Source: an uncultured Oscillospiraceae bacterium (GTDB lineage Bacteria; Bacillota; Clostridia; Oscillospirales; Oscillospiraceae). From it: a stretch of 64,000 bases of DNA. The stretch lies in the NCBI GenBank assembly GCA_947626265.1, contig CANQRM010000005.1:46628-110627 (forward strand). The letters are read 5' to 3'. The notes beneath the pieces were generated by a model. The model saw nothing but the letters and a program-made list of their open reading frames with translations, searched no databases and was not told where the DNA came from. Shown here one piece after another: positions 15,312 to 46,408 of this stretch. Every line of letters begins with the position of its first letter. Position 1 is the stretch's first letter. The translations under genes were made by a program, and so were the position numbers.

Positions 15312-16564
15312 GAAAGGACTTTAATTTGCGCGACATCGTCAACAAGGCCATGGACCAGGCCACCCCGGCCGACGCGCCGGAGATCGTCGAACACGTCCCC
15401 GTTGCCAAAATCACGCCCAACGCACGCAACATCTATGGTATGCGGGACCTGGACGAACTGGCGGCCTCTATCGAACTGACCGGCCTCCTGCACCCCATTA
15501 TCCTCCGGCCGAACCCCGACGGGGACGGTTATACCATAGTGGACGGGGAGCGGCGTTTCCGGGCCATGTCGGAGGTGCTGGGCCACGACGCCGTCCCGGC
15601 CATCGTCCGCACCCCGGACGCCGCCAAAACGGACGCCGTCAACGCCATCCTGGAAGAACTGGCCCTCCTGGAGGCCAACCGGCAAACCCGCAAGACGAAC
15701 CCCGCCGAACTGTCCAAGGAGGCGGAAAGGTACAAGGAACTGCTGATCCAGCTAAAGGAAAACGGCGTCGAAATCCCCGGCCGGCTCCGGGACGTGCTGG
15801 CCCAGGCCCTAGACGTAAGCGCCTCCAAGCTGGCCCGGCTGCAAAAGATACGCGGCTCCCTTGTACCCGAATATCTGGAGGTATTTGACGCCGGGGATAT
15901 GTCCGAGTCCGTGGCCTACACCATAGCCCAGCTTGACCCCGATATACAGCGCGTCGTCGTCGAATCGGAGGCCGACGCAAAGAAATTGGGCGCCTACGAG
16001 GTGACGAACCGGGCCGAATACCTGGCCGCCTGCACGGCCCGCCGCGACTGTCCCCATGGCGGGGTATGTACCTGGGGCGTCAAAATGTACGACATCGGCA
16101 AAAACAAGGCCGTTTATCAGAAATGCACGAACACCAGCGGATCGTCCCCGTGCTGCCATGACTGCTCCCGCGCAACTGAATGTGGCTCCGTGTGCCCCAT
16201 GGCCCAGCGCGACGTGGACCTTGTAAAACAGGCCAAAAAGGACGAGGCGGCCCGCAAGGAAAAGCAGCACGCCGAACAATGCGCCCTGGCCTGCCAGGAC
16301 TGGCAACGTGTCGCCAGAATGAGAGAGGCCGCCGGCGTCGCCATTGACGACGAAAGGCTCCCCCACATGAGCGGGTACAGCTGGGCACAATGGGAGGAGC
16401 GTAGCCTTATTTTGCCGCCCTATGACACGACGGACGTAAAGACCGCCATCTATTTCGTGCATAGCGCCGTCAATGTTGCTGACCTTTTCGGCGTGACCCT
16501 GGACGAACTTGTGGGCCGCACCGTCCCCCAGGCCGCACCCCCGGAGGCCCCCGACGATGAATAA
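15308..16564 (+). CDS. parB: ParB-like protein with Cys-rich C-terminal region
   Basis: ParB N-terminal box LAASIELTGLLHPIILRP...YTIVDGERRFRAM and an HTH-like SASKLARLQKI. The C-terminal part carries 9 clustered Cys (CPHGGVCTWG...CTNTSGSSPCCHDCSRATECGSVCP). Confidence 0.85.
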   Translation: MRKDFNLRDIVNKAMDQATPADAPEIVEHVPVAKITPNARNIYGMRDLDELAASIELTGLLHPIILRPNPDGDGYTIVDGERRFRAMSEVLGHDAVPAIVRTPDAAKTDAVNAILEELALLEANRQTRKTNPAELSKEAERYKELLIQLKENGVEIPGRLRDVLAQALDVSASKLARLQKIRGSLVPEYLEVFDAGDMSESVAYTIAQLDPDIQRVVVESEADAKKLGAYEVTNRAEYLAACTARRDCPHGGVCTWGVKMYDIGKNKAVYQKCTNTSGSSPCCHDCSRATECGSVCPMAQRDVDLVKQAKKDEAARKEKQHAEQCALACQDWQRVARMREAAGVAIDDERLPHMSGYSWAQWEERSLILPPYDTTDVKTAIYFVHSAVNVADLFGVTLDELVGRTVPQAAPPEAPDDE

Positions 16565-18400: not shown

Positions 18401-19206
18401 ATGTCCAAAATGCAAAATGTGGCCTATAACATGGACTGTATGGAGGCCATGCGGAGAATCCCCGACAAGTATTTCACGCTGGCCGTTGTGGACCCGCCCT
18501 ATGGCGGCGGGGGGGGGGTATGACTTCCAGACAGACATCGGCCTCCGGGCTACCCGCCCAGCCTGGGGGCCGCGTGGACGTTTCGGCGGCCGCTTTGACG
18601 GCTACCATAAGGGCGACCCGGACCGGGGGAACCTGGGCCGCGAAGTATCAGACGCACATAGGGGGTATCTTTGACCGGGATATACGATCCTGGGACGTAG
18701 CGCCGCCCCCGGAGTATTTCTCCGAACTGGCGCGCATAAGCGAAAACCAAATTATATGGGGCGGCAATTATTTTGACCTACCGCCCACGCGCTGCTTTTT
18801 AGTCTGGCGCAAGATCAACATACCGGCCGAGGGCTTTTCCATGGCACCCATAGAGTACGCATGGACTAGCTTTTCCGGCAACGCCCTGTATTTTGAGGCC
18901 AGCAGCGCCAGCAGCAGCAAGGAAAAGCGTTTCCACCCCACGCAGAAACCGCCCGCCCTGTATTCCTGGATATACGGCCTTTTTGCCCGGCCGGGCGATA
19001 AAATACTTGATACCCACCTGGGGAGCGGCTCCAGCCGCCTTGCCGCCTACGACGCCGGCCTGGATTTTGTGGGCTTTGAAATTGACAAGGTATATTTTGA
19101 CCTGCAAGAGGCGCGTTTTGAACAGCACGCGGCCCAGGTGTCCATTTTGGACACAATGGGGCCGTCATACTACCAGCAGGAGGCCCTATGGGACGAAACC
19201 GATTGA
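18401..19206 (+). pseudogene. DPPY-type DNA methyltransferase interrupted by frameshift(s) at or after a G10 homopolymer
   Basis: Frame 2 from ATG 18401 reads MSKMQNVAYNMDCMEAMRRIPDKYFTLAVVDPPYGGGGGV*, with the stop at 18521-18523. G10 run at 18509-18518. The remainder (ORF 18520-19206, frame 1) reads ...TGGTWAAKY...WDVAPPPEYFSELARISENQIIWGGNYF...RFHPTQKP...ILDTHLGSGSS. Catalytic motif IV and SAM motif I are therefore in different frames. Confidence 0.75.
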
Positions 19207-19961
19207 AAACCCGCCAGGCCGGCCGCCTTGTCGAGGTTGTTTGCTATACGCAGGCCAGCCCATCCGACCGGCCGGAGGAGCGGGCCGCAAAAAACAAAAT
19301 CAGCAGCGCCGCCCGGCAAAAGCTGAATTTCCGGGCCGCCTGGCGCAAGCTGGAGCTACTGCTGGCGGCCAACTTTTCGTATAGGGACTATTTCGTAACC
19401 CTGACCTATTCCCCGGAAAACCTGCCACAAAACCGGGCCGCCGCCCGGAAATGTATCACAAAGTACATAAAACGCCTCCGTGTCCAATTTGGACACCGGG
19501 GCTTGACCTTGAAATACATCTATAACACCGAGGCCGTCCCGGACCATCCCGGCGCCCCTGGCCGCCTGCACCACCACCTTGTTATCAGCGCCATAGACCC
19601 GGAAACCATCAAGACCCTTTGGGGCCTGGGCCAGGTGAATGTGGAGCCGCTGCTGGACGGCGCAAACGATAGCTATGAGGCCCGCGCCCGGTACATGGTG
19701 AAAGAGCGGGACCCCGGCATGGAGGGCCGCCGGGCCGGGCAAAGGGGCTGGACGCCCTCGTTAAACCTGGAAAAGCCCGTCGAATCGTCCGAACTAGTCC
19801 CCGAATTTGTCACGATCCAGCCCCCACCGGGGGCCTACGTCCTGGAAAAGGCCGCAGACAGCAATTACTATGGCTCTTTCCAGTATCTAAAGTATTTACT
19901 GCCCGAACCCCCGCGAAACAAGGCCAAAAAGCCGCCCGCCAGGCGGCCCAGGCGTCCATAA
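19188..19961 (+). CDS. HUH-superfamily rolling-circle Rep-like protein
   Basis: FVTLTY (motif 1), RLHHHLVISAI (HUH motif 2) and EARARYMVKE (Y-x-x-K, motif 3) occur in the canonical order. 257 aa, basic termini. Confidence 0.65.
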   Translation: MGRNRLKTRQAGRLVEVVCYTQASPSDRPEERAAKNKISSAARQKLNFRAAWRKLELLLAANFSYRDYFVTLTYSPENLPQNRAAARKCITKYIKRLRVQFGHRGLTLKYIYNTEAVPDHPGAPGRLHHHLVISAIDPETIKTLWGLGQVNVEPLLDGANDSYEARARYMVKERDPGMEGRRAGQRGWTPSLNLEKPVESSELVPEFVTIQPPPGAYVLEKAADSNYYGSFQYLKYLLPEPPRNKAKKPPARRPRRP

Positions 19962-25005: not shown

Positions 25006-25920
25006 ATGGCTACTCTGTCCCGTGGGGACCTGCTGCCCCCCGAAATCGTCACCGACCTGTTTAACAAGGTCAAAGGCAAGTCCACCCTGGCGGCGCTGTG
25101 CGCGTCCCGCCCCATCCCGTTTAACGGCGTGAAAGACTACACTTTCACCATGGACAAGGAAGTGGACCTCGTCGCCGAAAACGGCGCCAAATCCGCTGGC
25201 GGTATCACCATCGGCTCCCGTACCATCATGCCCGTAAAGGTGGAATACGGCGCCCGCGTGTCCGATGAGTTTATGACCGGCTCGGAGGATATGCAGCTGG
25301 ACATCCTGGGCGCGTTCAACGAGGGCTATGCCAAAAAAGTTGCCCGTGGCCTGGACTTCATGGCCTATTTTGGGATCAACCCCCGCACCGGCACCGCCGC
25401 CACCGAGACCATCAACGACAACCATTTCATGTCCAAGGTGACGCAGACCGTGGAATACGACGCCGAGGCCGAAGCCGGCCCCGACCCCAACGCGGCCGTT
25501 GAGGCCGCCGTGGCCCTGGTGAATGGCTCCGAGTACGATGTTACCGGCTTTGCTATGGCCCCCGCGCTGCGCGCTGCGCTGGCCGCCCAGACCGACAAAT
25601 CCGGCCGCGCCCTTTTCCCGGAGCTGTCCTGGGGCGCGACCCCTGGCGCCATCAAGGGAATCCCTGCCTCCGTCGGCGTGACCCTGGCAAAGGATAATAA
25701 GCTGCTGGGCGTCATCGGTGACTTTACAGAGGGTTTCCGCTGGGGCTATGCGAAGCAGATCCCCCTCAAGATCATCGAGTACGGCTGCCCCGATAACGAC
25801 ACCAGCGCCGGCGACCTCCAGGGCCATAACCAGGTATATCTGCGCTGCGAGACCTACCTCGGCTGGGCCGTCCTGGTCCCGGAGGCTTTTGCCCTTATCA
25901 AGCCCAAGGCCGGCGAATAA
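25006..25920 (+). CDS. Major capsid protein
   Basis: 304 aa following the scaffold. MATLSRGDLLPPEIVTDLFNKVKGKSTLAAL is a typical N-terminus for this capsid family. Strong RBS. Confidence 0.85.
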   Translation: MATLSRGDLLPPEIVTDLFNKVKGKSTLAALCASRPIPFNGVKDYTFTMDKEVDLVAENGAKSAGGITIGSRTIMPVKVEYGARVSDEFMTGSEDMQLDILGAFNEGYAKKVARGLDFMAYFGINPRTGTAATETINDNHFMSKVTQTVEYDAEAEAGPDPNAAVEAAVALVNGSEYDVTGFAMAPALRAALAAQTDKSGRALFPELSWGATPGAIKGIPASVGVTLAKDNKLLGVIGDFTEGFRWGYAKQIPLKIIEYGCPDNDTSAGDLQGHNQVYLRCETYLGWAVLVPEAFALIKPKAGE

Positions 25921-31001: not shown

Positions 31002-31684
31002 TGTACCACGGCGCGATCCTGGACCGTATCAACACCCTGCACAAATGGGGGCTTATCCTTATGGACGACCTGGAGGAGGGCGCCCCGGACATTAAGACCA
31101 ATTACCAGGACGTGGGCGGCATGGACGGACAGCTAAATTTTAGCTATGCCCTCACCGGCCGCCCCGTGTATGGTATGCGGCCCGTGTCCTTTACCCTGTG
31201 CCGGCCGTGGCATTTCGCCCTGCTGCACAACGTACCCCCGCAACCCATGGCCGACGTGTGGGCCGAATTTATGGCCCGGTATCACGGCCGGGAGGTGCTG
31301 CTGACCCTGCCAACCGACCCCGTCCACCATTATACCGGCGTCGTGCAGATCGGTGCCGTGACCGGCGACGCCCGCGACCGTTTCAGCGTGTCCATGACCG
31401 CCGACCCCTGGCGGGAACGCAACGAGCCGACCCGGATAACGGCCGCCGTGTCGAAAACGGCAAAGACCCTGTACCTGCCCAACGAGACCCGGCCCGTTAT
31501 CCCCACTATCACCGCAACCGCCCAGGCAAAAATCACCCTGGGCGGCAAGGACTACTATGTGGACGCCGGCACCGGGCGCAACCTGGATATTATGCTGGCC
31601 CCCGGCACCAACGCCGTGCAGGTGGCCCTCACGACCGCCAGCACGGGCCAGATCACCATGGAATACACGGAGGCAAAGCTGTAA
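31001..31684 (+). CDS. Distal tail protein (Dit-like)
   Basis: 227 aa immediately after the tape measure gene (stop/start overlap). Confidence 0.7.
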   Translation: MYHGAILDRINTLHKWGLILMDDLEEGAPDIKTNYQDVGGMDGQLNFSYALTGRPVYGMRPVSFTLCRPWHFALLHNVPPQPMADVWAEFMARYHGREVLLTLPTDPVHHYTGVVQIGAVTGDARDRFSVSMTADPWRERNEPTRITAAVSKTAKTLYLPNETRPVIPTITATAQAKITLGGKDYYVDAGTGRNLDIMLAPGTNAVQVALTTASTGQITMEYTEAKL

Positions 31685-34071
31685 TGTACAGACTGAATTT
31701 TGACGGCTGGCCCCTGTATGACCCCAGGGGCGCCAACAAAACGGACCGGCTTATCATCCGGGACCCGGACGTGCAAATCGGCGTCAACATGGCCGGCTCC
31801 GTGAAGTTTACCATTGACCCCGGACACCCCAACGCCGACAAGGTTACAAAGCTGCACGGCACCCTGGAATTGACCGACGACGCCGGCGTGCTTTTCCGGG
31901 GCCGTGTGCTGGATGAAAGGCAGACCTTTTATAATGCCGTCGAATATACCGCCGAGGGCGCCCTGGCCTGGCTGAATGACGGCATTGTGGAGCCGTATGA
32001 CTTCCCGGCCGACTTCCAGGCCGACCCGGCGTATCAAGCGGCGGCGGCCTCCGGCAACGTCGTGGCCTTTTTCCTGGGCTGGCTGCTGGACGGCTACAAC
32101 GCCCACGCGCTGCCAGAGCGCCAGATCAAGCTGGGCACCGTCACCGTTGCCGACCCCAACAATTACATAACCCGCGCTGATAGCAACTACCCCTCCACCT
32201 TTGAAGTCATAAGCAAGAAACTGGCCGGCTCCCAGCTGGGCGGCTACCTGGTAATGCGGTATGAGGCCGACGGCAATTATCTTGACTATCTTTCCACATT
32301 CACCGGCACCAACGCCCAGCAAATCACATTCGGCGAAAACCTGCTTGACCTCGTCCGGGAATGTTCGGCGGCTGACGTTTGTACCGCCGTGCTGCCCGTC
32401 GGCGCCGAGGGGCTGACCCTTGAGGGCCTGCCCGACGGCCCCCAGGAAAACGGCCTCGTCAAGGCCGGCAAAGTGCTGTATAACCCCCAGGCCGAGGCGG
32501 ACTATGGCCGGATCATCCGAAAAGTGGAATACAGCGACATAACCCAGGCCCAAAACCTGCTCCGCACCGCCGCAAAGGACATGGGCGCGGAAATCCGGCT
32601 CCCGGAGTCCTTGCAGGTGCAGGCGTGCGACCTGCATTATCTGGACGGCACCGTGCCGTCGTTTCGCCTGGGCCTGTACACCGTCATTGTAAGCGCCCCC
32701 CATGACATCGTCCGCAAATCCTACCCCTTGACCGAACTCCGGCCTAATATCCTGAACCCCGGCGCGACGCCTATAACGCTGAACGGCACCGCCGCCCAGC
32801 TGACCGCCCAGCTCCGCCAGGCCCAGCAGGCCGAACAGGAACGGACGGACTCCGCCATGCGGGCCGTCGTGAAACAGGCGTCGGACATGTTGCAGGAAAT
32901 CCTGGAGCAGGCGTCCGGCCTGTACTGTACCCCGGAAGTCCAGGCGGACGGCTCCACCATCTACTACCTGCACGACAAGCCGACCCTGGCCGACTCCAAG
33001 AATGTAATTAAACTTACGGCTGACGCCATCGGTTTTAGTACGGACGGCGGCCATACCTACCCCTACGGGTTTACTGTCACGGGCGATATGGTGGCCCGCG
33101 TGCTGTCCGCCTACGGCGTAAATGCCGACTGGATCAACGCCGGCACCGTGAACCTGGGCAAGCTCCGCGTGGAGGGCGACCTGGGCGGCATAGCCGAGGG
33201 CCAGGGACAAGACCAATACAGCCTCACGCGCGGGCTGATAATTTACGGCCCGGCCGGCCTGGATGAAAACGGCGTCGCTATCCCGCCCTATATCATTATG
33301 ACGGATAAGGGTTTCCGCGTGCAGATCGACGCCGACCGCAATTTTTACTTTGTGGCCGGGTCCAACCTGGTTGTAAATTCCGGGGAGCGCGTCAACGGCG
33401 CTTTCCGGGCCACGGGGCGGATAAGGTGTGACTCTGATATGTACGCCGGGCAAGCAATCTGGCTGGACCAGGATATGGTGGCAAGCGCCCCCCATATTAG
33501 CGTGTTCACCAGCGAGACCGGCGGCCTTAACCTTGTGGGCTACAGCCGCACCAGCAGCGCCGAGTGGCTTTGCTACGCCGGCGGCCGTCTTGTGATCCAC
33601 GGCGGCGATATAACCTCGGACGTGGCTATCCAGACGACATCAGACCGGGACGCCAAGAAAGACATTGAACCCCTGGAGTACACGCCGGCGGCCCCTGCTG
33701 GCGCGTCTGACAGCCCCCAGGAGGCCCCCAGCATTGACGGCGACCCCAACCCCGCCCCCAGCCTTGCGACGCTGTACGAGGCTTTTGTGGACGCGCTGAC
33801 GCCTGTACGGTTTCACTATAAGGAGCAGGCCGACGCCGACGCGCCCCTGCACATCGGCTATATCTACCAGGACGCCCTGGCGGCGCTGGAGGCCGTGGGC
33901 CTGGGCAAGGCCGACCTGGCGGCCCTGGGCGAGGGCCTGGATGAAAACGGCAACGTCCACAGGGGCATAGCGTACAGCGAACTTATACCCCTGCTGCACC
34001 TCAAGATCAAGCGCCAGGCGGCCGAAATGGACGCGCTGGCGGCCCGCATTACGGCCCTGGAGGCCAGGTAA
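31684..34071 (+). CDS. Tail-associated protein (Tal-like) with C-terminal S74-type intramolecular chaperone domain
   Basis: ORF 31198-34071 trimmed to ATG 31684 (GGAGG upstream), giving 795 aa. The C-terminus TSDRDAKKDIEPL...VRFHYKE...HIGYIYQD...IAYSELIPLLHLKIKRQAAEMDALAARITALE matches the autoproteolytic chaperone-of-endosialidase pattern. Confidence 0.8.
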   Translation: MYRLNFDGWPLYDPRGANKTDRLIIRDPDVQIGVNMAGSVKFTIDPGHPNADKVTKLHGTLELTDDAGVLFRGRVLDERQTFYNAVEYTAEGALAWLNDGIVEPYDFPADFQADPAYQAAAASGNVVAFFLGWLLDGYNAHALPERQIKLGTVTVADPNNYITRADSNYPSTFEVISKKLAGSQLGGYLVMRYEADGNYLDYLSTFTGTNAQQITFGENLLDLVRECSAADVCTAVLPVGAEGLTLEGLPDGPQENGLVKAGKVLYNPQAEADYGRIIRKVEYSDITQAQNLLRTAAKDMGAEIRLPESLQVQACDLHYLDGTVPSFRLGLYTVIVSAPHDIVRKSYPLTELRPNILNPGATPITLNGTAAQLTAQLRQAQQAEQERTDSAMRAVVKQASDMLQEILEQASGLYCTPEVQADGSTIYYLHDKPTLADSKNVIKLTADAIGFSTDGGHTYPYGFTVTGDMVARVLSAYGVNADWINAGTVNLGKLRVEGDLGGIAEGQGQDQYSLTRGLIIYGPAGLDENGVAIPPYIIMTDKGFRVQIDADRNFYFVAGSNLVVNSGERVNGAFRATGRIRCDSDMYAGQAIWLDQDMVASAPHISVFTSETGGLNLVGYSRTSSAEWLCYAGGRLVIHGGDITSDVAIQTTSDRDAKKDIEPLEYTPAAPAGASDSPQEAPSIDGDPNPAPSLATLYEAFVDALTPVRFHYKEQADADAPLHIGYIYQDALAALEAVGLGKADLAALGEGLDENGNVHRGIAYSELIPLLHLKIKRQAAEMDALAARITALEAR

Positions 34072-34082
34072 GGAGGCACCAC

Positions 34083-35156
34083 ATGATTTACACCAGGCAC
34101 ATAACCGTGGACCTGTACGACGACCGTATAACGGAGGTGGAAACCCAACAGGGCGACACCGCCCGCGCCCTGGAAATCACCGTCACCATGGACGGGGAGC
34201 AGCTGACCCCCGCCCCCGGCACCCGCGTTAATTTCCGGGGCCGCAAGCCGGACGGCTACGGCATAGACAACCCCGCGACCATCACCGAACAGAACACCAT
34301 CCGCTATCAATTCACGGAGCAGACCGTGGCATACCCCGGCCGGTTTCCGTGCGACATCTATTTTGTGCAGACCGACGGCACCCTCTCCACCGTCACGTTT
34401 TGGCTAATCGTCAAGCCCCACCCGGCCGGCAAGCCCGGCACCAGCAGCTACGAATACGGGGCCATGGTGGACGCTACAAACAAGGCCCTGGAGGCCGCAG
34501 GCGACGCCTCCGGCGCTGCTGGGGACGCCAGCGCGGCGGCCAGCGCGGCGACCGAGGCGGCCGGCCTTGCGAACACGGCGGCCCAGGCCGCCGGCGAGGC
34601 GACGGAAAAGGCCAACACCGCCGCCGGCCGGGCAGAGACCGCGACCGAGACCGCGAACACCGCCGCCGACGGGGCCAATACAGCAGCGGCCGCCGCCAAT
34701 GCAGCAGCAGGCGACGCTGGGGCCGCTGCTGACAAGGCAAACACAGCGGCCGGGAACGCGGACGCGGCCACGGAAAAAGCCAACGCGGCCGCCCAGGACG
34801 CCTCCGAGGCTGCTACCGCCGCCGACGGGGCAACGGATAGAGCCAACACCGCCGCCGGCCTTGCGGAGTCCGCTGCCGACGGGGCCAACACGGCGACCGG
34901 CGCCGCCCAGGAGGCAACCGACGCCGCCAACGCCGCCGCCCAGCAGGCGACCGGCGCGGCCGCCGAGGCGGACGCCGCGACCGACGAGGCCCTGGAAGCG
35001 GCCGAACAGGCCCGCCAGGCGGCCCAAACCGTCCTGGGGGAGATTGACGGCGTCGTGCTGCTGTCCCTGGACACGCAGCAAAAGTATATTATGCGTTTCC
35101 GCATTTCGGACGGCTGCCCCGCGATCCAGGTAAGCAAAACAATACAGGCCGGATAA
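34083..35156 (+). CDS. BppU-like baseplate/fibre protein with Ala-rich coiled-coil repeats
   Basis: N-terminus ITVDLYDDRITEVETQQGDTARALEITVTMDGEQL...RFPCDIYF resembles the BppU N-terminal Ig-like domain. The central roughly 180 aa hold degenerate (ANTAA/ATEKANxAA) repeats. Confidence 0.7.
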   Translation: MIYTRHITVDLYDDRITEVETQQGDTARALEITVTMDGEQLTPAPGTRVNFRGRKPDGYGIDNPATITEQNTIRYQFTEQTVAYPGRFPCDIYFVQTDGTLSTVTFWLIVKPHPAGKPGTSSYEYGAMVDATNKALEAAGDASGAAGDASAAASAATEAAGLANTAAQAAGEATEKANTAAGRAETATETANTAADGANTAAAAANAAAGDAGAAADKANTAAGNADAATEKANAAAQDASEAATAADGATDRANTAAGLAESAADGANTATGAAQEATDAANAAAQQATGAAAEADAATDEALEAAEQARQAAQTVLGEIDGVVLLSLDTQQKYIMRFRISDGCPAIQVSKTIQAG

Positions 35157-35214: not shown

Positions 35215-36921
35215 ATGGATGAAATCTTGCACACATTCCCCAGCGCGGCCCAGCATGAGCGTATCGCCGTAGCCCTGGAACGGCTGGCAAACGCCAAGGC
35301 CAGCCCCGAATACCTGGACGCCTATTGTGGCCTGCTTATGGACGGCACCAACACGACCGCCGTACTCCGCCAATGGTGGCCCCTGGCCGCCTATGACACC
35401 CCCGACAAGTACGAGCGCCTGTCCCGTTTTGCGGCCATGGCGGCCCAGGCATGGGACGGCAAGGTGTACACCGTGCGCGGCTTTTCGTCCGCGACCGCCG
35501 ACCACGCCATGACGCCCCTTGACGACCTGGCGGGCAAGGGCAAGGCCGTACTGGCGACCGACACGGCCCCCGGCGCTGCTGACTGGGCCGAAGAGGACCC
35601 CATGACCTGGTATATCCGGGCCAACGCCGTAAGCAAACAGGACGGCACTATGGACATCAAGGCCATAGAGGGGGAGCCGGGTTTCGACATTACGGGCGAA
35701 ACGGCCCCCGTGTACACCTTTGCCCTGGCCCTCTGGCGCCGGGAAGTCCGGGACGGGAGCTATACCACGAAAAGCTGGCGGACGACGCAGGCGGGCGGTT
35801 TCCGCCCCTACGCGGGCGACGTGGCCCCGGACGGCACAAAGCGGGCGTTGACCTGGCACCCCACATTCGGCGGGGCGCTGAATAGCAAGGGCAACCTCAC
35901 CAGCGGCGCCGGCCGGCCCCTTGCCATTTTCAAGTCCGCTTTGCAGGGCTTGGAGGCCGCCCGGAAGTGGAACGCCTACGAGGGCCTTTGGTGTGACTGT
36001 GATACCGAATGGCTGCTTGATATGTGGCAGTTGCGGCACCAGGACAAGGAAAACAGCGCGATACTGGAGGGCTGCACAACCTACAATTACCAGTATCAGG
36101 TGGCCGTGGCCGAGAATGGCGTGTCCCGCGTCCTGGTGACGACCGTACAGGGTGCAAATTTCGTGGCCGGCTCCACCGTTTCCGTCGGCGACCATTCGGC
36201 CGCCAGCAACCGGGACCGGGGCCAGGCCGATATGCGGAACCTGGCCGACCAGGTACAGATCACCAGCATAGCCGAGGTGTCTATCGGTGAAACGAAATAC
36301 ACCGCCCTCAACCTGGACCTGGGCGGCAAGGCCATTGACGTACCGGCGGAGGCGTGGGTGTCCACCATGCCCTGGCACACTGGCAGCACGGAGCGCGTAC
36401 CCGGCCATAAGGACGGTTGCCTGGGCAATCTCACCATCGGCAAATACCCCTTGCGCGTGGCCGGCGTGGAGGCCGTGGACGGCGCCTATGCCGTGGGCCT
36501 TGATCCCCTGTATAACGTCGTGGCCGGCTCCGACGGCACGCACTGGACCTATAACCGCGTGGCCGTGTGCAGGGACTCCGAAAACCTGGCCGGCACCATC
36601 GGCGCCGGCTATGAGGACACCGGGATCACTTTTACGGATATGCCCCAGGGCTGGCAGTACGTCAAGGAATTTGCCCAAAACAATGACGGCGTAATTTTCC
36701 CGTCCGAGATCGGCGGCTCCAGTACACAATGGTATAAGTCCGCTTTCTATGGCTCGGATGGCGCCGGCGTCCGCTGTCCGTGGCGTTTTGCCATTCTGTA
36801 TGATACGGCCTCTGCCGGCCTCGCCGCCGGGTGTGGCAACCTTGCGCCCTCGGCGCTGGCCTGGTTTGGCGCGCCCCGGCTTTCCGGGGCGGGTAAAAAG
36901 CGGGGTGAATGGCCGGCGTAA
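35215..36921 (+). CDS. DGR target protein: tail fibre / receptor-binding-position protein carrying the variable region at its C-terminus
   Basis: 568 aa, last structural gene of the tail module. The final roughly 60 codons contain VR (36738-36885). C-terminus: ...YGSDGAGVRCPWRFAILYDTASAGLAAGCGNLAPSALAWFGAPRLSG. Confidence 0.85.
   Translation: MDEILHTFPSAAQHERIAVALERLANAKASPEYLDAYCGLLMDGTNTTAVLRQWWPLAAYDTPDKYERLSRFAAMAAQAWDGKVYTVRGFSSATADHAMTPLDDLAGKGKAVLATDTAPGAADWAEEDPMTWYIRANAVSKQDGTMDIKAIEGEPGFDITGETAPVYTFALALWRREVRDGSYTTKSWRTTQAGGFRPYAGDVAPDGTKRALTWHPTFGGALNSKGNLTSGAGRPLAIFKSALQGLEAARKWNAYEGLWCDCDTEWLLDMWQLRHQDKENSAILEGCTTYNYQYQVAVAENGVSRVLVTTVQGANFVAGSTVSVGDHSAASNRDRGQADMRNLADQVQITSIAEVSIGETKYTALNLDLGGKAIDVPAEAWVSTMPWHTGSTERVPGHKDGCLGNLTIGKYPLRVAGVEAVDGAYAVGLDPLYNVVAGSDGTHWTYNRVAVCRDSENLAGTIGAGYEDTGITFTDMPQGWQYVKEFAQNNDGVIFPSEIGGSSTQWYKSAFYGSDGAGVRCPWRFAILYDTASAGLAAGCGNLAPSALAWFGAPRLSGAGKKRGEWPA
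36738..36885 (+). repeat. DGR variable region (VR)
   Basis: 148 bp collinear with 36988-37135 (offset exactly 250). 16 mismatches, 15 at positions where the TR copy has A. Confidence 0.9.
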
Positions 36922-36948
36922 AGCCGGCCAGAGGGGGCGCCGCCCCCT
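36886..36948 (+). promoter_or_regulatory. Candidate IMH plus downstream hairpins flanking VR
   Basis: G-rich GGGGCGGG (36886-36893) pairs with ACGGCGGG in the TR copy, so the copies diverge at non-A positions here. Then GGCCGGC-gtaaa-GCCGGCC (36911-36929, spanning stop codon 36919-36921) and the palindrome AGGGGGCG-c-CGCCCCCT (36932-36948). Confidence 0.5.
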
Positions 36949-36987
36949 GCTCCAGTTTCGACACAAAAGGGTATTGCAGCGCGAACG

Positions 36988-37135
36988 GTCCGCTTTCTAT
37001 GGCTCGAATGGCGCCGGCGTCCGCTGTCCGTGGCGTTTTGCCAATCTGAATGATACGGCCCATGCCGGCCTCGCCGCCGAGAATGGCAACAATGCGCCCT
37101 CGACGCTGAACTGGAATGACGCGCCCCGGCTTTCC
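36988..37135 (+). repeat. DGR template repeat (TR)
   Basis: Non-coding copy of VR. Read in the VR-equivalent frame it gives Asn-rich SNG..ANLND..AENGNNAP..LNWND (AAY codons). Lies about 235 bp upstream of the RT gene. Confidence 0.9.
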
Positions 37136-37370
37136 ACGGCGGGGAAACGGTATCTTTTTCATCCCCGCCGAAGATTGAAAAATCAAAGCGTTGCAATATC
37201 CCGGCGTATGCCAAAATCATGTGATACCGACTCCGCCCTATGGCGGCCGCCCGGCCCTGGGCCTGGCGGGGGTTAGTAGTAATATCCCGGCGACCTGCTT
37301 TAAGGCCAGCCGGTCAACCGAAAAGCCCCGTACATAAGGAAAGACCTATCCCCCGGAAAGGGGCGACGAT

Positions 37371-38639
37371 ATGAAGCAGCGGTATAAAGACCTGGACCAT
37401 GCTTTGTGCGTCCTGGCCGTCTTAAAAGCCTTTGAGGATAAATGGGACCGCCAGGACGTGCAGGCCGTCGTCAACAAGTACGCCGGGATCACCCGGCGGG
37501 AACTGCTGGCCGACGTGGACCGTGGCAATTTCAATGTCAAGATGGAGGCCGCTGAAAGTATCGCCTACGAACTGGAGCAGCGCGTCGTGGACCTTATGGC
37601 CGGCGACCCCGACGCCCTGGACCTGGAGCCGGTATATGTCCGCCAGCGGCGCGACGGCATGACCGGGAAACTCCGGGATATAGCCGACCTGTGCATATTT
37701 CACCAGCTTTTCGGCCATCTGGTACGCCTGGGCCTGGACCCGCTTTTCAAGGCCCGCATACTGCCCCAGCAGCACGCCAGCCTCCCGGATCACGGCCAGG
37801 TGGCCCTAAAACAGCAAGTGGAGCGGTATCTACGGGCCGACCGCCTGCACATCAAGGCGGCCCTTAAAAAGGACGTACATCATGCCTATCAAAGTACGCA
37901 GTACGCCGTGGCAATAGACCTCCTCCGGCGGGAAATCCCCAGCGCCGCGTGGATTTTCGCCATCCTGGACGCCATGGCCCGGATAGCACCCGGCGGCCAT
38001 CTGATAATAGGCGGCTACCTCGACGCCTGGCTTTTCAATTTCGTTATGTCCTACGCCTTGCGGTACGTCCTGGGGCTGCACAAGACCCGGCGCGGCCGGT
38101 CCGTGCCCCTGGTGTGCCGGACGCCCTGCTATATGGACGACGTGGGCCTGCTGGGCCGCCGCGTGGCTGACATCAAAAGCGCCGCCCGGAAAATGGGCGC
38201 CTGGATGGAGGCCAACCTGGGCCTCCAGTGGAAAGACGACGGCGAACTGACCGAATTTATGACCGTGCAGCAGGAACACCAACGGAAAAAGGCGCCGACG
38301 CCAGCCGGGCGAGGTTGCCCCGGCCTGGATATGGGCGGTTTCGTCATGCACCGCACTTATACCACCATCCGGCCCCGCATTTACATACGCGCCCGCCGGG
38401 CCTACCTCCGCAGCGGCCGGGAGGCGGACGGGACCGGCACCGTAAACGTCCAGCGCGCCCGCCGAAATTCGGCCTATTATGGCTATTACAAGCACACCGC
38501 CTCCGCAGGGGCAAAACGCAAGTACAACGTGGAGAAATTGCAAAACCTGTCTGCCCACGTTGTAGTATATCACGACCGGGCGGCCGCCCGGCAAAGAAAG
38601 GAGCAGCAAGCCCGACATGATAGCAAAATGCACAACTAA
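37371..38639 (+). CDS. Reverse transcriptase (DGR-associated)
   Basis: 422 aa. RT motifs by eye: KLRDIADLCIFHQLFGHLV (1/2), LKKDVHHAYQS (3), IIGGYLDAWLFNFVM (4), CYMDDVGLLG (5, YMDD at aa 254-257), GLQWKDD (6). Immediately downstream of TR. Confidence 0.9.
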   Translation: MKQRYKDLDHALCVLAVLKAFEDKWDRQDVQAVVNKYAGITRRELLADVDRGNFNVKMEAAESIAYELEQRVVDLMAGDPDALDLEPVYVRQRRDGMTGKLRDIADLCIFHQLFGHLVRLGLDPLFKARILPQQHASLPDHGQVALKQQVERYLRADRLHIKAALKKDVHHAYQSTQYAVAIDLLRREIPSAAWIFAILDAMARIAPGGHLIIGGYLDAWLFNFVMSYALRYVLGLHKTRRGRSVPLVCRTPCYMDDVGLLGRRVADIKSAARKMGAWMEANLGLQWKDDGELTEFMTVQQEHQRKKAPTPAGRGCPGLDMGGFVMHRTYTTIRPRIYIRARRAYLRSGREADGTGTVNVQRARRNSAYYGYYKHTASAGAKRKYNVEKLQNLSAHVVVYHDRAAARQRKEQQARHDSKMHN

Positions 38640-38949
38640 CGAAAGGCCGGCCGACGTGGAGATCAACACCATCCCCGACGGCGGCCAGTACGTCCGCCTG
38701 CACCAGAACGCCTCGCAGGTGGACACCCCCAGCATGGACGGCCAGCCGGCCGGCAAGGTGTGGGAAAGTGACGAGGTTTCCTTTTACGCCCCCGCTGACC
38801 GCGAACCGCTGACCGTGGAGGCCGTGACGGCGGACTTTTCCGACTGGTGGACCTACGGCGCCGCCTGGGACCCCGACGCCCCCGCCCCTAGCCTGGACGA
38901 CCGGGTTACAGACCTGGAGGCCGTCATGCTGGCGATCATCGGCGTGTAA
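38617..38949 (+). CDS. Hypothetical acidic phage protein
   Basis: 110-aa ORF overlapping the RT 3' end by 23 nt. The RBS is rather distant. Confidence 0.5.
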   Translation: MIAKCTTNERPADVEINTIPDGGQYVRLHQNASQVDTPSMDGQPAGKVWESDEVSFYAPADREPLTVEAVTADFSDWWTYGAAWDPDAPAPSLDDRVTDLEAVMLAIIGV

Positions 38950-43774: not shown

Positions 43775-45253
43775 TTATGCCAGCGCGGAGAGTTTTTCCA
43801 TGCCGTCTTTCATACGCCGCAGGGTCTCGTCCTTGCCCAGGATGCGGCAAATCTCCACCGCGCCGCCCGGCGTCACGGCGGTGCCGGTGACGGCGATGCG
43901 AACGGGCCACATGAGCTTGGCGTTCTTGACCTCCAGCTTTTCGGCGAGAGCGATCATGGCGTCATGGATGTGCTCATCGTCCCACACGTCCACCGCCTCC
44001 AGCACCGGCAGGGCGGCTTTCAGCATCTCCAAAGCGCTCTGCTCGTCGCTCTTGGACTTTTTGTGGACGTAGAGCTCGGTGCTATATTCCGGAAGGGCGT
44101 CGAAAAAGCCCAGCTTCCCGGGGATATCCGTCAGCACCTCGGTGCGCTGCTGCAGGAGCGCCGCGATGGCCGCCGGGTCGATGGCGGGATTTTTCACGGC
44201 CTCGCGGATATAGGGCTCCGCCACGTTGGCAAACTCCTCCGGAGTCATGGCCCGGATGTACTCGGCGTTGAAGTAGGTGAGCTTTTCGATATCGAAGATG
44301 GCCTGGCTCTTGGATATGCCGGAAAGGTCAAAGGCCTCCGCCAGCTCCCGGATGGAGTATATCTCCCGCTTCCCGCCGGGGGCCCAGCCCAGCAGCGCCA
44401 CATAGTTCACGATGGCGGCCCGGAGATAGCCCTTCTCCACCAGGTCCTCATAGGAGGGGTCCCCGTGGCGCTTCGACATCTTATTGTGAGCGTCCCGCAT
44501 CACCGGGGAGCAGTGGACATACTTGGGCACATCCCAGCCGAAGCCCTCGTAGAGCAGGTTATACTTGGGCGCGCTGGCCAGATACTCCGAGCCCCGGACC
44601 ACGTGGGTGATGCCCATCAGGTGGTCGTCGATGACGTTGGCGAAGTTATAGGTGGGAAGGCCGTCCCGCTTGATGAGCACCTGGTCGTCCAAGTCCTTAT
44701 TGGGGGCAGTCACGTCGCCGAATATCTCGTCGTGGAAGGTGGTGGAGCCCTCCTGGGGTATCTTCTGGCGTATCACGTAGGGCATCCCCGCGTCCAGGCG
44801 GCGCTTTACCTCTTCTTCAGGCAGGTCCCGGCAGGGGTCGGCGGCCTTGGAAAAGACGCCTTCCTCCTCGCTCTCCGCCTTGTCGCAGAAGCAGTAATAG
44901 GCGTGGCCCCGCTGCACCAGCCGCTGGGCGAAGGGCAGGTAGAGCCCCCGCCGCTCGGTCTGCACATAGGGGCCCACGGGACCGCCCTTGTCCGGGCCCT
45001 CGTCCCAGTCCAGACCGCAGTCCAGGAGCGTGCGGTAGATCACGTCCACCGCCCCCTCCACCAGCCGGTTCTGGTCGGTGTCCTCGATGCGCAGGAGGAA
45101 CTTGCCCCCGTTGTGGCGGGCGATGCACCATGTGTAGAGCGCTGTTCTCAGGTTGCCCACGTGCATGTATCCCGTGGGGCTGGGGGCGAAGCGGGTGCGG
45201 ACCTCTCCCTTGGGGATGCGGCTTTCAAGCTCGTCGAAAAACTTCTCGTCCAT
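43775..45253 (-). CDS. gltX: Glutamate--tRNA ligase
   Basis: RTRFAPSPTGYMHVGNLRTALY (HIGH region) and KMSKRHG (KMSKS). 492 aa. Confidence 0.95.
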   Translation of the reverse strand: MDEKFFDELESRIPKGEVRTRFAPSPTGYMHVGNLRTALYTWCIARHNGGKFLLRIEDTDQNRLVEGAVDVIYRTLLDCGLDWDEGPDKGGPVGPYVQTERRGLYLPFAQRLVQRGHAYYCFCDKAESEEEGVFSKAADPCRDLPEEEVKRRLDAGMPYVIRQKIPQEGSTTFHDEIFGDVTAPNKDLDDQVLIKRDGLPTYNFANVIDDHLMGITHVVRGSEYLASAPKYNLLYEGFGWDVPKYVHCSPVMRDAHNKMSKRHGDPSYEDLVEKGYLRAAIVNYVALLGWAPGGKREIYSIRELAEAFDLSGISKSQAIFDIEKLTYFNAEYIRAMTPEEFANVAEPYIREAVKNPAIDPAAIAALLQQRTEVLTDIPGKLGFFDALPEYSTELYVHKKSKSDEQSALEMLKAALPVLEAVDVWDDEHIHDAMIALAEKLEVKNAKLMWPVRIAVTGTAVTPGGAVEICRILGKDETLRRMKDGMEKLSALA

Positions 45254-45394
45254 AGTATTTCCCTCGTTTTCTCAAACTCCCATCAGCATATTTTATTCTT
45301 CCCGGCTTGTCAAGAGGTGACCGCGTATGTTATTATATTTAATTGTAGAAACCATCAAATAGCGGCGCATCTGCGCCGTAGAAAGCGTGGATAT

Positions 45395-46408
45395 ATGGAA
45401 GAGAAGAAAAAAGTGATGCTCTCGGGCATCAAACCCTCCGGCGACCTGACCCTGGGCTCCTATCTGGGGGCCATCAAGAACTGGGCCGAGCGGGCGGAGA
45501 CCTTTGACTGCTACTACTTCATGGCGGACCTGCACGCCCTGACCACCCGTCAGAACCCGGCGGACCTGCGCCGGCGCACATTGGAGCAGCTGGCCCAGTA
45601 TGTGGCCTGCGGCCTGGACCCGGAGAGGAACACCCTCTTCATCCAGTCCCATGTGCCCGAGCACGCCCAGCTGGGCTGGGTGCTGCAGTGCTACACCATG
45701 TTCGGGGAGCTGAGCCGCATGACCCAGTTCAAGGATAAGTCCGCCAAGAACGCCGACAACATCAACGGCGGCCTCTTCGCCTATCCCTCCCTCATGGCGG
45801 CGGACATCCTCCTCTACCAGCCGGACTACGTGCCCGTGGGCGACGACCAGAAGCAGCACGTGGAGCTCACAAGGGACATCGCTCACCGCTTCAACGGCGT
45901 GTACGGCGACGTATTCAAAATACCCGAGCCCTATATCCCCAAGGTGGGCGCCCGGGTCATGGACCTTCTGGACCCCTCCAGCAAGATGTCCAAATCCGAC
46001 GACATCGGCACCGGCCGCGTCTGCCTCATGGACCAGCCCCAGGACATCGCCCGGAAGTTCAAGCGGGCCGTCACCGACTCCGATACCGACGAGCACTGCG
46101 TCCATTATGACCGGGAGAACAAGCCCGGCGTGGCGAACCTCATGCAGATCTACGCCAGCTGCACCGGCAAGACCTTCGACGCCATTGAGGCGGAGTTCAC
46201 CGGCCACGGCTACGGCGATTTCAAGTCCGCCGTGGGCGAGGCGGTCATCGAGACCCTCCGGCCCATCCGGGAGGAGGCCAGCCGCCTCATGAAGGACAAG
46301 GGGTACCTGGAAAACCTCTGCCGCACCGGCGCGGAAAAGGCCTCCTACATCGCCATGAAGACCCTGCGGAAGGTGTACAAGAAGGTCGGATTGGTACCCA
46401 GGGCATAA
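45395..46408 (+). CDS. trpS: Tryptophan--tRNA ligase
   Basis: Long ORF 43964-46408 trimmed to ATG 45395. MEEKKKVMLSGIKPSGDLTLGSYLGAIKNW, GDDQKQH and KMSKS motifs. 337 aa. Confidence 0.95.
   Translation: MEEKKKVMLSGIKPSGDLTLGSYLGAIKNWAERAETFDCYYFMADLHALTTRQNPADLRRRTLEQLAQYVACGLDPERNTLFIQSHVPEHAQLGWVLQCYTMFGELSRMTQFKDKSAKNADNINGGLFAYPSLMAADILLYQPDYVPVGDDQKQHVELTRDIAHRFNGVYGDVFKIPEPYIPKVGARVMDLLDPSSKMSKSDDIGTGRVCLMDQPQDIARKFKRAVTDSDTDEHCVHYDRENKPGVANLMQIYASCTGKTFDAIEAEFTGHGYGDFKSAVGEAVIETLRPIREEASRLMKDKGYLENLCRTGAEKASYIAMKTLRKVYKKVGLVPRA

What the first reader, a model, noticed from the sequence alone, without database searches (positions are those of the whole stretch)
35215..38639. Diversity-generating retroelement on the prophage tail-fibre gene: VR/TR pair with adenine-specific mismatches plus RT
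Two 148-bp repeats lie exactly 250 bp apart. VR (36738-36885) is the last roughly 50 codons of CDS 35215-36921, and TR (36988-37135) is non-coding. I aligned them base by base and found 16 mismatches. Fifteen are at positions where TR has A (37007, 37044, 37049, 37062, 37080, 37082, 37083, 37091, 37092, 37103, 37109, 37110, 37115, 37116, 37119) and VR has G, T or C. Only one mismatch (TR C37061 vs VR T36811) is not at a TR adenine. By my count 15 of the 23 TR adenines differ. In the VR frame the TR adenines occupy codon positions 1-2 (TR reads SNG..ANLND..AENGNNAP..LNWND; VR reads SDG..AILYD..AAGCGNLAP..LAWFG). This is the AAY design of DGR templates. An RT with YMDD starts about 235 bp downstream of TR. 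The target is the last tail gene, so this would be Bordetella phage BPP-1 Mtd-style receptor-binding diversification in a Clostridia prophage.
Basis: partly seen in the sequence, partly recalled or inferred. Interest (0 to 1): 0.85.

Follow-up and report, generated by a model that had tools for sequence, protein, structure and literature searches.

The report
Active Avd-less DGR on prophage tail fibre
This is a real, recently active diversity-generating retroelement that rewrites the tip of a gut Clostridia prophage's tail-fibre gene; the system type is well known, but this reverse-transcriptase lineage lacks the usual helper protein and signature motif and carries a conserved structured RNA that Rfam does not hold.

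Summary
VR 36738-36885 and TR 36988-37135 differ at 16 sites, 15 of them at TR adenines (P about 1e-11). All 23 TR adenines sit at codon positions 1-2, and no stop codon can arise.

The interpretation as a DGR holds.
- The 422-aa RT matches Bordetella bRT best, by profile and by predicted fold.
- 89 of the related RT loci and same-prophage copies examined carry the same cassette, with 96.6% of 1395 mismatches at TR adenines.
- Near-identical prophage copies from other samples have an identical TR but a VR that differs at 18 sites, 16 of them TR-adenine positions. This indicates recent activity.

The "Mtd-style" part is only an analogy. The target shows no detectable Mtd similarity and its C-type-lectin fold could not be tested. 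There is no Avd, which is the known accessory-free "Architecture A". The RT misses Pfam RVT_1, and its motif 4 reads GGYLDAW instead of (I/V/L)GxxxSQ.

Beyond the finding:
- A roughly 155-nt structured RNA (37184-37339) lies between TR and RT. It has strong covariation, is present in 98 of 100 sources and has no Rfam match.
- Two conserved hairpins follow the VR.
- An acidic 110-aa ORF is always linked to the RT.

Verdict: a new member of a known kind, of moderate interest.

The parts
35215..36921 (+). DGR target gene: a 568-aa tail-fibre / receptor-binding-position protein.
   Evidence: phrog_17147 matches at E 2.7e-125 and phrog_5302 'tail protein' at 3e-11. There is no Pfam hit. BFVD Foldseek hits are to 'tail collar fiber' and 'tail fiber' proteins, E 8.5e-30 to 1e-7. 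The gene lies after Prophage_tail/Peptidase_S74 and BppU_N genes.
36738..36885 (+). Variable repeat (VR), the last roughly 50 codons of the target. Substituted sites span 36757-36869.
   Evidence: It has 16 mismatches to the TR, 15 at TR adenines and all at codon positions 1 or 2. It differs at 18 sites from the VR of near-identical prophages L106-L108, 16 of them at TR-A positions.
36870..36897 (+). IMH-like 3' end of the VR. A G+C-only block (36868-36880) is followed by imperfect homology to the TR end (GG against AC at 36886-7, T against G at 36894).
   Evidence: Base-by-base alignment. The same pattern is seen across family loci: a conserved GC block, then VR/TR divergence. The role is inferred by analogy with BPP-1 IMH/IMH* (PMC5758913).
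36910..36930 (+). Conserved hairpin A downstream of the VR: TGGCCGGC-GTAAA-GCCGGCCA, with the target stop codon (36919-36921) in the loop.
   Evidence: A perfect stem of at least 5 bp is present in 37 of 44 unique family sequences, with 21 different stem sequences. It is a candidate equivalent of the BPP-1 GC-rich inverted repeat after IMH (inference).
36932..36948 (+). Conserved hairpin B: AGGGGGC-GCC-GCCCCCT.
   Evidence: It is present in 41 of 44 unique family sequences. Its role is unknown: a target-recognition element, a terminator or the 5' part of the DGR RNA.
36988..37147 (+). Template repeat (TR, 36988-37135) plus an IMH*-like end (to 37147); non-coding.
   Evidence: It has 23 adenines, none at codon position 3 of the VR frame, and 8 AAY codons. 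It is 100% identical in L106-L108 although their VR differs.
37137..37170 (+). TR-proximal stem-loop (CGGCGGGGA...UCCCCGCCG).
   Evidence: It appears in the MFE fold of the window spacer. A hairpin of differing sequence sits directly after the TR in other family loci. It is reminiscent of the stem-loops just downstream of TR described for Avd-containing DGRs (bioRxiv 10.1101/2023.10.23.563531).
37184..37339 (+). Conserved multi-helix structured RNA between TR and RT. Near-invariant motifs are AAAAUCA, GUAGUA, UAAG and AACCGAAA.
   Evidence: Covariance model R1 scores 127 bits, E 1e-33 in the window. There is one hit per source in 98 of 100 sources, always just upstream of the RT. 89.6% of cells pair, against 63% in shuffles and 33-49% in slid controls. 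26 of 28 pairs show compensatory changes. No Rfam match was found.
37371..38639 (+). DGR reverse transcriptase, 422 aa. Motif 4 IIGGYLDAWLFN lies at 38004-38039 and YMDD at 38130-38141.
   Evidence: phrog_1423 'Reverse transcriptase' matches at 3e-32. Pfam and NCBIfam give no hit. The family profile hits bRT 8ub7_A at 1.1e-10. hhalign against Brt gives 96.6%. AF2 pLDDT is 95.4 and the Foldseek top hit is 8ub7_A.
38617..38949 (+). Acidic 110-aa ORF that overlaps the RT stop. It is either a cassette-linked candidate accessory protein or a fibre-associated protein.
   Evidence: Homologues were found in 91 of 104 loci: 89 directly after the RT and 2 (L094, L101) between target and TR. Three distant homologues are also directly after the RT. 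It has no Pfam, PDB or GenBank-phage match.

Best explanation
This is a functional, accessory-free (Avd-less, 'Architecture A1') diversity-generating retroelement. It sits in the tail module of a temperate phage of a gut Clostridia (Oscillospiraceae-like) host.

Proposed mechanism:
1. A transcript covering the TR and the roughly 235-nt structured spacer is bound by the RT encoded immediately downstream.
2. The RT copies the TR into cDNA and misincorporates at template adenines.
3. The cDNA replaces the VR at the 3' end of the tail-fibre gene. Direction is set by the GC-rich IMH-like end and the VR-specific hairpins.
4. Because all 23 TR adenines are at codon positions 1-2 (mostly AAY), up to about 4e13 receptor-binding variants can arise without stop codons, changing host-receptor specificity.

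Shown here: the repeat anatomy and adenine bias; the RT's kinship to bRT; conservation of the cassette across the family; VR turnover with a constant TR between near-identical prophages; and a covarying RNA structure.

Inferred: that the structured RNA scaffolds and primes reverse transcription in place of an Avd-RNA complex; that hairpin A or B marks the target; and that the target tip binds a host receptor.
For: - Adenine bias: 15 of 16 mismatches fall at TR adenines, P about 1e-11, with the codon-position design described above.
- RT kinship: profile against PDB hits 8ub7_A at E 1.1e-10. hhalign against Brt gives 96.6% over 242 columns. The AF2 model has pLDDT 95.4 and its best Foldseek hit is bRT, E 2.4e-13, TMt 0.79. 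R102 aligns with bRT R74, and the catalytic YMDD is intact.
- Family: 85 of 104 loci have adenine-biased pairs in the same order.
- Family totals: 1347 of 1395 mismatches are at TR-A. There are 58 TRs against 86 VRs. Fifteen TRs are each shared by 2-7 different VRs, and 247 of 257 variable VR columns sit at TR-A positions.
- Same prophage in other samples: the TR is identical, 4 differences were counted over 36867-38684 (3 of them in the RT ORF), and the VR has 18 differences in 118 bp.
- Structured RNA.
- Tail and lysis context.
- Avd-less cassettes are a documented class, 29% of DGRs in Wu et al. (PMC5758913). FP_Epona and Arawn show the same target-TR-RT layout.
Against: - There is no direct read-level evidence of heterogeneity within one sample. 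Activity is inferred from differences between assemblies.
- The RT lacks the (I/V/L)GxxxSQ signature (GGYLDAW) and scores below Pfam RVT_1 thresholds.
- The target's fold at the VR is unknown (pLDDT below 50 for residues 508-568), so a C-type-lectin display scaffold is unproven.
- No promoter-like site was found for a TR transcript.
- One non-adenine change occurs in each of the two VRs compared.
Confidence: 0.95

Rival explanations
1. A decayed or fossil DGR. The repeats record past mutagenic homing, but the element in this window is no longer active.
For: No within-sample heterogeneity was measured here. Other Faecalibacterium prophage DGRs showed no read-level activity at the time of sequencing (PMC11792537).
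Against: - The RT ORF is full length, with all family-invariant residues and YMDD.
- The TR is 100% identical in L106-L108, and 4 differences were counted over 36867-38684 (3 of them in the RT ORF), while the VR differs at 18 of 118 positions. This implies turnover since these copies diverged.
- All RNA helices are intact in the window.
Confidence: 0.1
2. The RT belongs to another retroelement class (retron, group II intron-like, Abi/DRT defence RT). On this reading it merely neighbours a duplicated tail-fibre segment that varies by ordinary mutation or by gene conversion from a silent cassette.
For: Pfam RVT_1 and NCBIfam do not recognise the RT. The SQ motif used to define DGR RTs is absent.
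Against: - The best sequence and structure matches are to the Bordetella DGR RT, ahead of group II intron, retron and DRT RTs.
- Ordinary mutation or conversion would not put 96.6% of 1395 differences on template adenines, nor keep the TR constant while the VR varies.
- The RT, TR and VR are syntenic in 85 or more loci.
Confidence: 0.02
3. The conserved structured RNA (37184-37339) is a cis-regulatory leader of the RT gene, for example translational control or a processing or terminator element. It would then not be a functional part of the reverse-transcription RNP.
For: It lies in the 5' UTR position of the RT, ending about 30 nt before the start codon. No complementarity to the TR 3' end that would mark a priming duplex could be identified.
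Against: - In the two cases tested, the RNA in the same TR-to-RT position is a recognised RT-associated structured RNA: Phage_DGR/RT-10 in BPP-1 and RT-4 in FP_Epona.
- In BPP-1 this spacer RNA envelops the RT and supplies the priming adenosine (bioRxiv 10.1101/2023.10.23.563531).
- Its size (8 helices) and near-invariant single-stranded motifs are more than a leader usually needs.
Confidence: 0.15

Closest known systems
Bordetella phage BPP-1 DGR (mtd-avd-TR-brt)
   Same: - The VR lies at the 3' end of a tail receptor-binding gene.
- The TR has adenines at codon positions 1-2.
- A GC-rich IMH-like end is followed by an inverted repeat present only on the VR side.
- A structured spacer RNA lies between TR and RT.
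- The RT is the closest relative by profile and by fold.
   Different: - There is no avd.
- The target is not detectably related to Mtd.
- The spacer RNA does not match Rfam Phage_DGR.
- RT motif 4 is GGYLDAW, not IGSLTSQ. This replaces bRT I181 and Q187, which contact the incoming dNTP.
- The RT is about 95 aa longer.
Accessory-free DGRs, 'Architecture A1' of Wu et al. 2018 (PMC5758913). Examples are the cassettes of Faecalibacterium phage FP_Epona and Butyrivibrio phage Arawn.
   Same: - Gene order is target-VR, TR, spacer RNA, RT, then small XkdX-type genes and the lysis cassette.
- There is no Avd.
- The hosts are gut or rumen Clostridia phages.
   Different: - The RT is only about 24% identical to the Epona and Arawn RTs.
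- Epona's spacer is Rfam RT-4 (124 bits), whereas this family has no Rfam hit. Model R1 gives only weak hits in Arawn (14 bits) and none in Epona.
- Epona's target is annotated Mtd-like; this target is not.
Rfam RT-associated RNA motifs (RF03022 Phage_DGR, formerly RT-10, and RF03025 RT-4; Weinberg et al. 2017, PMC5737381)
   Same: A structured RNA located between TR and RT of a DGR. It is presumed to act in priming or RNP assembly.
   Different: There is no detectable similarity at E <= 1 in Rfam 15. The architecture differs, with distinct near-invariant motifs (AAAAUCA, GUAGUA, AACCGAAA).

Membership tests
Diversity-generating retroelement (DGR) | A pair of imperfect repeats (TR and VR) whose differences fall almost only at TR adenines | tested here: met
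   15 of 16 mismatches are at TR-A, P about 1e-11. Across the family the figure is 96.6% of 1395.
Diversity-generating retroelement (DGR) | The VR lies inside a protein-coding target gene, and the TR adenines are placed so that changes are non-synonymous and avoid stop codons | tested here: met
   The VR is the last roughly 50 codons of CDS 35215-36921. TR adenines are at codon positions 1 and 2 only, there are 8 AAY codons, and no stop is reachable.
Diversity-generating retroelement (DGR) | A nearby RT of the DGR clade | tested here: met
   The best PDB profile hit and the best Foldseek hit are both Bordetella bRT. hhalign gives 96.6%. No formal phylogeny against all RT classes was made.
Diversity-generating retroelement (DGR) | The (I/V/L)GxxxSQ signature in RT motif 4. 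DiGReF (PMC3521204) calls it 'largely necessary and sufficient' and finds it conserved in about 90% of DGR RTs. | tested here: not met
   The aligned segment is G214-G215-Y-L-D-A219-W220, invariant in 87 family members. 'AW' is not among the published variants (SP, SH, NQ, PA, AQ, VQ). The same paper treats the motif as a frequent signature rather than an absolute requirement, and adenine-specific variation is demonstrated for this clade. Membership therefore stands on the functional criteria.
Diversity-generating retroelement (DGR) | Evidence of ongoing VR diversification with a stable TR | tested here: met
   L106-L108 have an identical TR and 18 VR differences, 16 at TR-A positions. Fifteen TRs are each shared by 2-7 different VRs. 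Read-level heterogeneity was not tested.
BPP-1-type DGR (Architecture B, Avd-dependent) | An avd accessory gene (PF05635-type four-helix-bundle protein) adjacent to the TR | tested here: not met
   There is no ORF between VR and TR or between TR and RT. Pfam scans of neighbouring and other prophage ORFs found no Avd. The family layout leaves no room for one.
Mtd / C-type-lectin DGR variable proteins | The VR is displayed on a C-type-lectin (or FGE-sulfatase / DUF1566) fold | tested here: inconclusive
   There was no Pfam hit and no PDB profile hit. hhalign against Mtd gives 2.4%. The AF2 model has pLDDT below 50 over residues 508-568, so the Foldseek result is uninformative for the VR domain.
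Rfam Phage_DGR (RF03022) / RT-4 (RF03025) RNAs | A match to the covariance model at or above the gathering score | tested here: not met
   No hit at E <= 1 in the window, L083 or L066. The positive controls BPP-1 (104.7 bits) and FP_Epona (124.4 bits) were found.

The most novel reading that the evidence does not exclude
This RT lineage has at least 360 protein clusters, all from gut or rumen Clostridia phages, and no named isolate. It may represent a mechanistically distinct, Avd-independent way of running a DGR. On this reading, a large dedicated structured RNA that Rfam does not hold, possibly helped by the always-linked acidic 110-aa protein, takes over the scaffolding and priming role of Avd. 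Adenine-specific misincorporation would then be achieved without the SQ motif, since bRT I181 and Q187 are replaced by Gly and Trp.
Probability: 0.3. Interest if true: 0.6.

Novelty: new member of a known kind. Interest (0 to 1): 0.4.

Why it matters
As a DGR on a gut-phage tail fibre it is expected biology. Gut Firmicutes phages are known to be DGR-rich (PMC8144416, PMC5883640, PMC11792537).

Its value is as a clean natural test case for two open mechanistic questions.

1. How do Avd-less DGRs assemble and prime reverse transcription? Wu et al. 2018 inferred that an Avd-independent mechanism must exist. This family offers a well-defined, strongly covarying RNA and a compact three-part cassette to reconstitute.
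2. What makes DGR RTs misread adenine? A whole clade keeps adenine-specific mutagenesis while replacing both palm residues that contact the incoming nucleotide in bRT.

The covariance model could also improve annotation. Pfam-based pipelines miss this RT.

Tried and rejected
- C-type-lectin test of the target. AF2 on a 37-sequence alignment left the VR domain unfolded (pLDDT below 50). PDB Foldseek gave nothing significant. The PDB profile search and hhalign against Mtd were negative. The result is inconclusive, not negative.
- Window-specific hairpin CGCCCCGG-CTTT-CCGGGGCG (36870-36889), intact in the VR and broken in the TR. I first took it for the BPP-1-like cruciform. It is not conserved in the family, so I dropped it in favour of hairpins A and B.
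- Search for a TR 3'-end:spacer priming duplex like BPP-1 TR117-129:Sp47-56. Only a 6-bp GGCUUU/AAAGCC match exists in the window and it is not conserved. This was by inspection and gives no support.
- Avd search. Pfam scans of 29 ORFs gave no hit. The scan was not exhaustive for every small ORF in the window.
- Tentaclin family (PMC10743442). Rejected, because tentaclins carry an N-terminal C-lec domain and VR, whereas here the VR is C-terminal.
- Named-phage identity. The RT, target and orf110 have no annotated relative in 50,697 GenBank phage records, only unannotated faecal contigs.
- The thermodynamic z-score of the window spacer alone is not significant (-1.19). Support for the RNA rests on covariation.
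- The search for related loci with the orf110 alignment failed because it had no conserved stretch. Pfam, PHROG and PDB searches give orf110 no function.


Full report
**1. Observation**

The repeat finder reports one long direct repeat pair, 36738-36897 and 36988-37147, at 88% identity and offset 250.
- There are 16 mismatches. Fifteen have A in the downstream copy and G, T or C in the upstream copy. One is C against T.
- The downstream copy has 23 adenines in 148 nt. The chance that at least 15 of 16 mismatches hit an adenine is 1.0e-11 (binomial) or 5.6e-14 (hypergeometric).
- In the frame of CDS 35215-36921, the adenines are at codon position 1 (10), position 2 (13) and position 3 (0).
- Eight codons are AAY. 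No A-to-N change can create a stop. About 4e13 protein variants are encodable.
- Beyond 36885 the homology continues to 36897 with three more mismatches (A, C and G in the TR). This is the pattern expected of IMH against IMH*.
- The TR has no other copy in the window.

**2. The RT**

ORF 37371-38639 (422 aa) is not recognised by Pfam even at E <= 10, nor by NCBIfam. It does match phrog_1423 'Reverse transcriptase' at 3e-32.

It belongs to a populous family. At least 360 clusters were found, and some members carry a precomputed PF00078 hit. The family has invariant RT motifs: DGMTGKxRxIA, HQ..GH, Q[HCF]ASIPGRGQ, K.D...AY, LIIGGYLDAWLFN and YMDD.

Its nearest characterised relative is the Bordetella DGR RT.
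- A profile of 87 members hits only 8ub7_A with significance in the PDB, at E 1.1e-10. Group II and retron-type RTs come in at E >= 0.17.
- hhalign against Brt from the BPP-1 genome gives 96.6% probability over 242 columns.
- The AlphaFold model is very confident (pLDDT 95.4, pTM 0.91). Its best Foldseek match is the bRT cryo-EM structure (E 2.4e-13, TM 0.79 on the target). This ranks ahead of G2L4, group II intron, DRT and retron RTs.

Both alignments put GGYLDAW opposite bRT IGSLTSQ.
- The fingertip Arg (bRT R74) is kept as R102.
- bRT I181 and Q187 contact the incoming dNTP (bioRxiv 10.1101/2023.10.23.563531). They are Gly214 and Trp220 here, invariant in the family.
- The (I/V/L)GxxxSQ signature was described as conserved in about 90% of DGR RTs, with variants SP, SH, NQ, PA, AQ and VQ (PMC3521204). 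It is absent here.

**3. Family-level test**

Scans with the RT alignment returned 80 IMG/VR loci and 24 genome loci. The genome loci come from Oscillospiraceae, Faecalibacterium prausnitzii, Subdoligranulum, Fusicatenibacter, Lachnospiraceae, Bulleidia and unnamed Clostridia MAGs.

A self-BLAST script found an adenine-biased repeat pair (at least 75% of mismatches at A) in 85 of 104 loci. The order was always VR, then TR about 250-300 bp further on, then the RT about 200-260 nt after the TR. Most of the remaining loci are truncated upstream.

Pooled over 89 pairs:
- 1347 of 1395 mismatches (96.6%) are at TR adenines.
- There are 58 distinct TRs but 86 distinct VRs.
- Fifteen TRs are each shared by 2-7 different VRs.
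- Of 257 VR columns that vary among VRs sharing an identical TR, 247 are at TR-A positions.

**4. Same prophage, other samples**

The 90% cluster of the target protein holds variants that are 95-97% identical to the window's protein over their full length. Most of their differences fall in the VR.

Contigs L106-L108 come from three other samples and were compared with the window over 6.5 kb.
- Their TR is 100% identical to the window's.
- Four differences were counted from 36867 to 38684, which covers the TR, the RNA and the RT.
- There are 18 differences within 36749-36866. Sixteen are at TR-A positions and one non-adenine change occurs in each VR.

It argues for recent activity.

A fourth contig (L109) has VR and TR collapsed into one TR-like copy, 253 bp shorter. 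This is an assembly artefact or a real VR/TR recombination. Another contig (L105) starts inside the TR.

**5. Target and context**

The prophage module reads as follows:
- ParA/ParB, methylases and a Rep protein;
- scaffold and capsid (25006-25920);
- a tape-measure-like ORF;
- Prophage_tail plus Peptidase_S74 (31198-34071);
- a BppU_N baseplate protein (34083-35156);
- the target;
- TR, RNA and RT;
- small ORFs, then XhlA-like, holin and a CHAP/PG_binding endolysin.

The target is therefore the last tail gene, in the receptor-binding position.
- It has no Pfam domain. It matches phrog_17147 and a 'tail protein' PHROG.
- Its model resembles predicted 'tail collar fiber' and 'tail fiber' proteins of uncultured phages.
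- Residues 508-568, which hold the VR, were not confidently modelled.
- PDB searches by sequence and by fold, and hhalign against Mtd, were negative.
- The C-type-lectin expectation therefore remains untested, and "Mtd-style" is a functional analogy only.

**6. No Avd**

Nothing is encoded between VR and TR or between TR and RT, and no scanned ORF matches Avd. This is the known 'Architecture A'. It accounts for 29% of DGRs, and Wu et al. inferred an Avd-independent mechanism for such elements (PMC5758913). FP_Epona and Butyrivibrio phage Arawn have the same layout, with RTs about 24% identical to this one.

**7. A conserved structured RNA**

The TR-RT spacers of 27 non-redundant loci share near-invariant motifs separated by helices whose sequences differ. 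RNAalifold on the core predicts 28 pairs, of which 27 have compensatory changes.

A covariance model (R1) finds exactly one hit in 98 of 100 sources. The hit is always on the RT strand and ends just before the RT start. In the window it is 37184-37339 at 127 bits. The two sources without a hit have almost no sequence upstream of the RT.

On the 73 distinct sequences:
- 89.6% of cells pair, against 63.0% in column shuffles (0 of 500 reach the observed value) and 33-49% when partners are slid by 1-3 columns.
- 26 of 28 pairs show double changes.
- The covariation score is 0.69, against 0.23 in shuffles and at most 0.17 in slid controls.

The window's own MFE fold reproduces these helices and adds a 9-bp stem-loop directly after the TR.

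Rfam 15 has no match in the window or in family loci. The controls worked: the BPP-1 spacer is RF03022 Phage_DGR and the Epona spacer is RF03025 RT-4. R1 gives only weak hits in the expected place in Arawn and in one faecal contig, and none in BPP-1 or Epona.

By position and by analogy with BPP-1, this RNA is most likely the RNP scaffold and primer of the element. In BPP-1 the spacer envelops bRT-Avd and supplies the priming adenosine. That role is an inference.

**8. Elements after the VR**

Two hairpins follow the target's last codons throughout the family.
- Hairpin A (36910-36930) has the stop codon in its loop. A perfect stem of at least 5 bp occurs in 37 of 44 unique sequences, with 21 different stem sequences.
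- Hairpin B (36932-36948) occurs in 41 of 44 unique sequences.

They are absent after the TR. They are the best candidates for the VR-side inverted repeat that makes homing directional in BPP-1. A terminator role, or a role as the 5' end of the DGR RNA, is not excluded.

**9. A linked small protein**

The acidic 110-aa ORF overlapping the RT stop (38617-38949, pI about 4.1) has homologues in 91 of 104 loci.
- 89 lie directly after the RT. Two lie between target and TR, which is the avd position.
- Three distant homologues looked up independently are again directly after an RT-family gene and a target-family gene.
- By contrast the upstream BppU gene is shared by only 11 loci and XhlA by 2.
- The ORF has no Pfam, PDB or GenBank-phage relative.

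It may be an accessory factor or a fibre-associated protein. The data cannot separate the two, because the target always co-occurs with it.

**10. Verdict**

The finding is a genuine, apparently active DGR. It is a new member of a known kind (accessory-free DGRs of gut Clostridia phages), so it is not surprising in itself. The lineage-level peculiarities give it moderate interest as a model for Avd-independent DGR mechanics:
- the SQ motif is replaced;
- Pfam does not see the RT;
- a large covarying RNA is absent from Rfam;
- a small acidic protein is tightly linked to the cassette.

Noticed in passing
L109 4525-4690 (contig SRR27728189_106667); protein P0243: In a 95%-identical prophage the VR and TR are collapsed into a single TR-like copy. 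The locus is 253 bp shorter, and the target gene reads through into TR-downstream sequence. This is either an assembly collapse of the repeat or a real VR/TR recombination that would reset the target to the template sequence.
   Followed up: partly
L105 (Logan contig ERR10663757_88147), start of contig: A contig carrying the identical RT begins 357 nt upstream of it, inside the TR. Assemblies appear to break at the VR/TR repeat, which may hide such DGRs in short-read data.
   Followed up: no
window 38617-38949: An acidic (pI about 4.1) 110-aa ORF overlaps the RT stop and is linked to the RT in 91 of 104 loci. In L094 and L101 it sits between target and TR, like avd in BPP-1. It has no Pfam, PDB or GenBank-phage relative. 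It could be a candidate DGR accessory protein or a fibre-associated protein.
   Followed up: partly
L114 3612-3728 (Faecalibacterium phage FP_Epona, MG711462.1): The Rfam motif RT-4 (RF03025, 124 bits) lies exactly between the TR and RT of the Epona DGR. Arawn has a sub-threshold RT-4 hit in the same place. RT-4 therefore appears to be a DGR spacer RNA, as Weinberg et al. speculated for some RT motifs.
   Followed up: partly
window 36264-36663: Between the window and L106 there are 21 substitutions in the 400 bp just upstream of the VR, against about 0.1-0.2% elsewhere. They are not at TR-related positions. This suggests ordinary diversifying change or recombination in the receptor-binding domain in addition to DGR action.
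   Followed up: no
window 34500-34975 (inside the BppU_N protein gene 34083-35156): A run of degenerate 21-nt and 42-nt periodic repeats encodes an Ala/Thr/Asn-rich segment (…ANTAAG…). It looks like a repetitive linker or coiled-coil stalk in the baseplate protein.
   Followed up: no
window 14544-16564 and 19188-19961: The prophage carries ParA (AAA_31/CbiA), ParB_N and a Rep (REP_ORF2-G2P) gene. This hints at a plasmid-like (phage-plasmid) lifestyle or partition module rather than, or besides, integration.
   Followed up: no
window 43964-46408: An 814-aa ORF has a class I Trp/Tyr tRNA-synthetase domain only in residues 480-765, so it carries a long N-terminal extension of unknown nature. It lies outside the prophage. 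The start codon comes from a crude ORF call.
   Followed up: no
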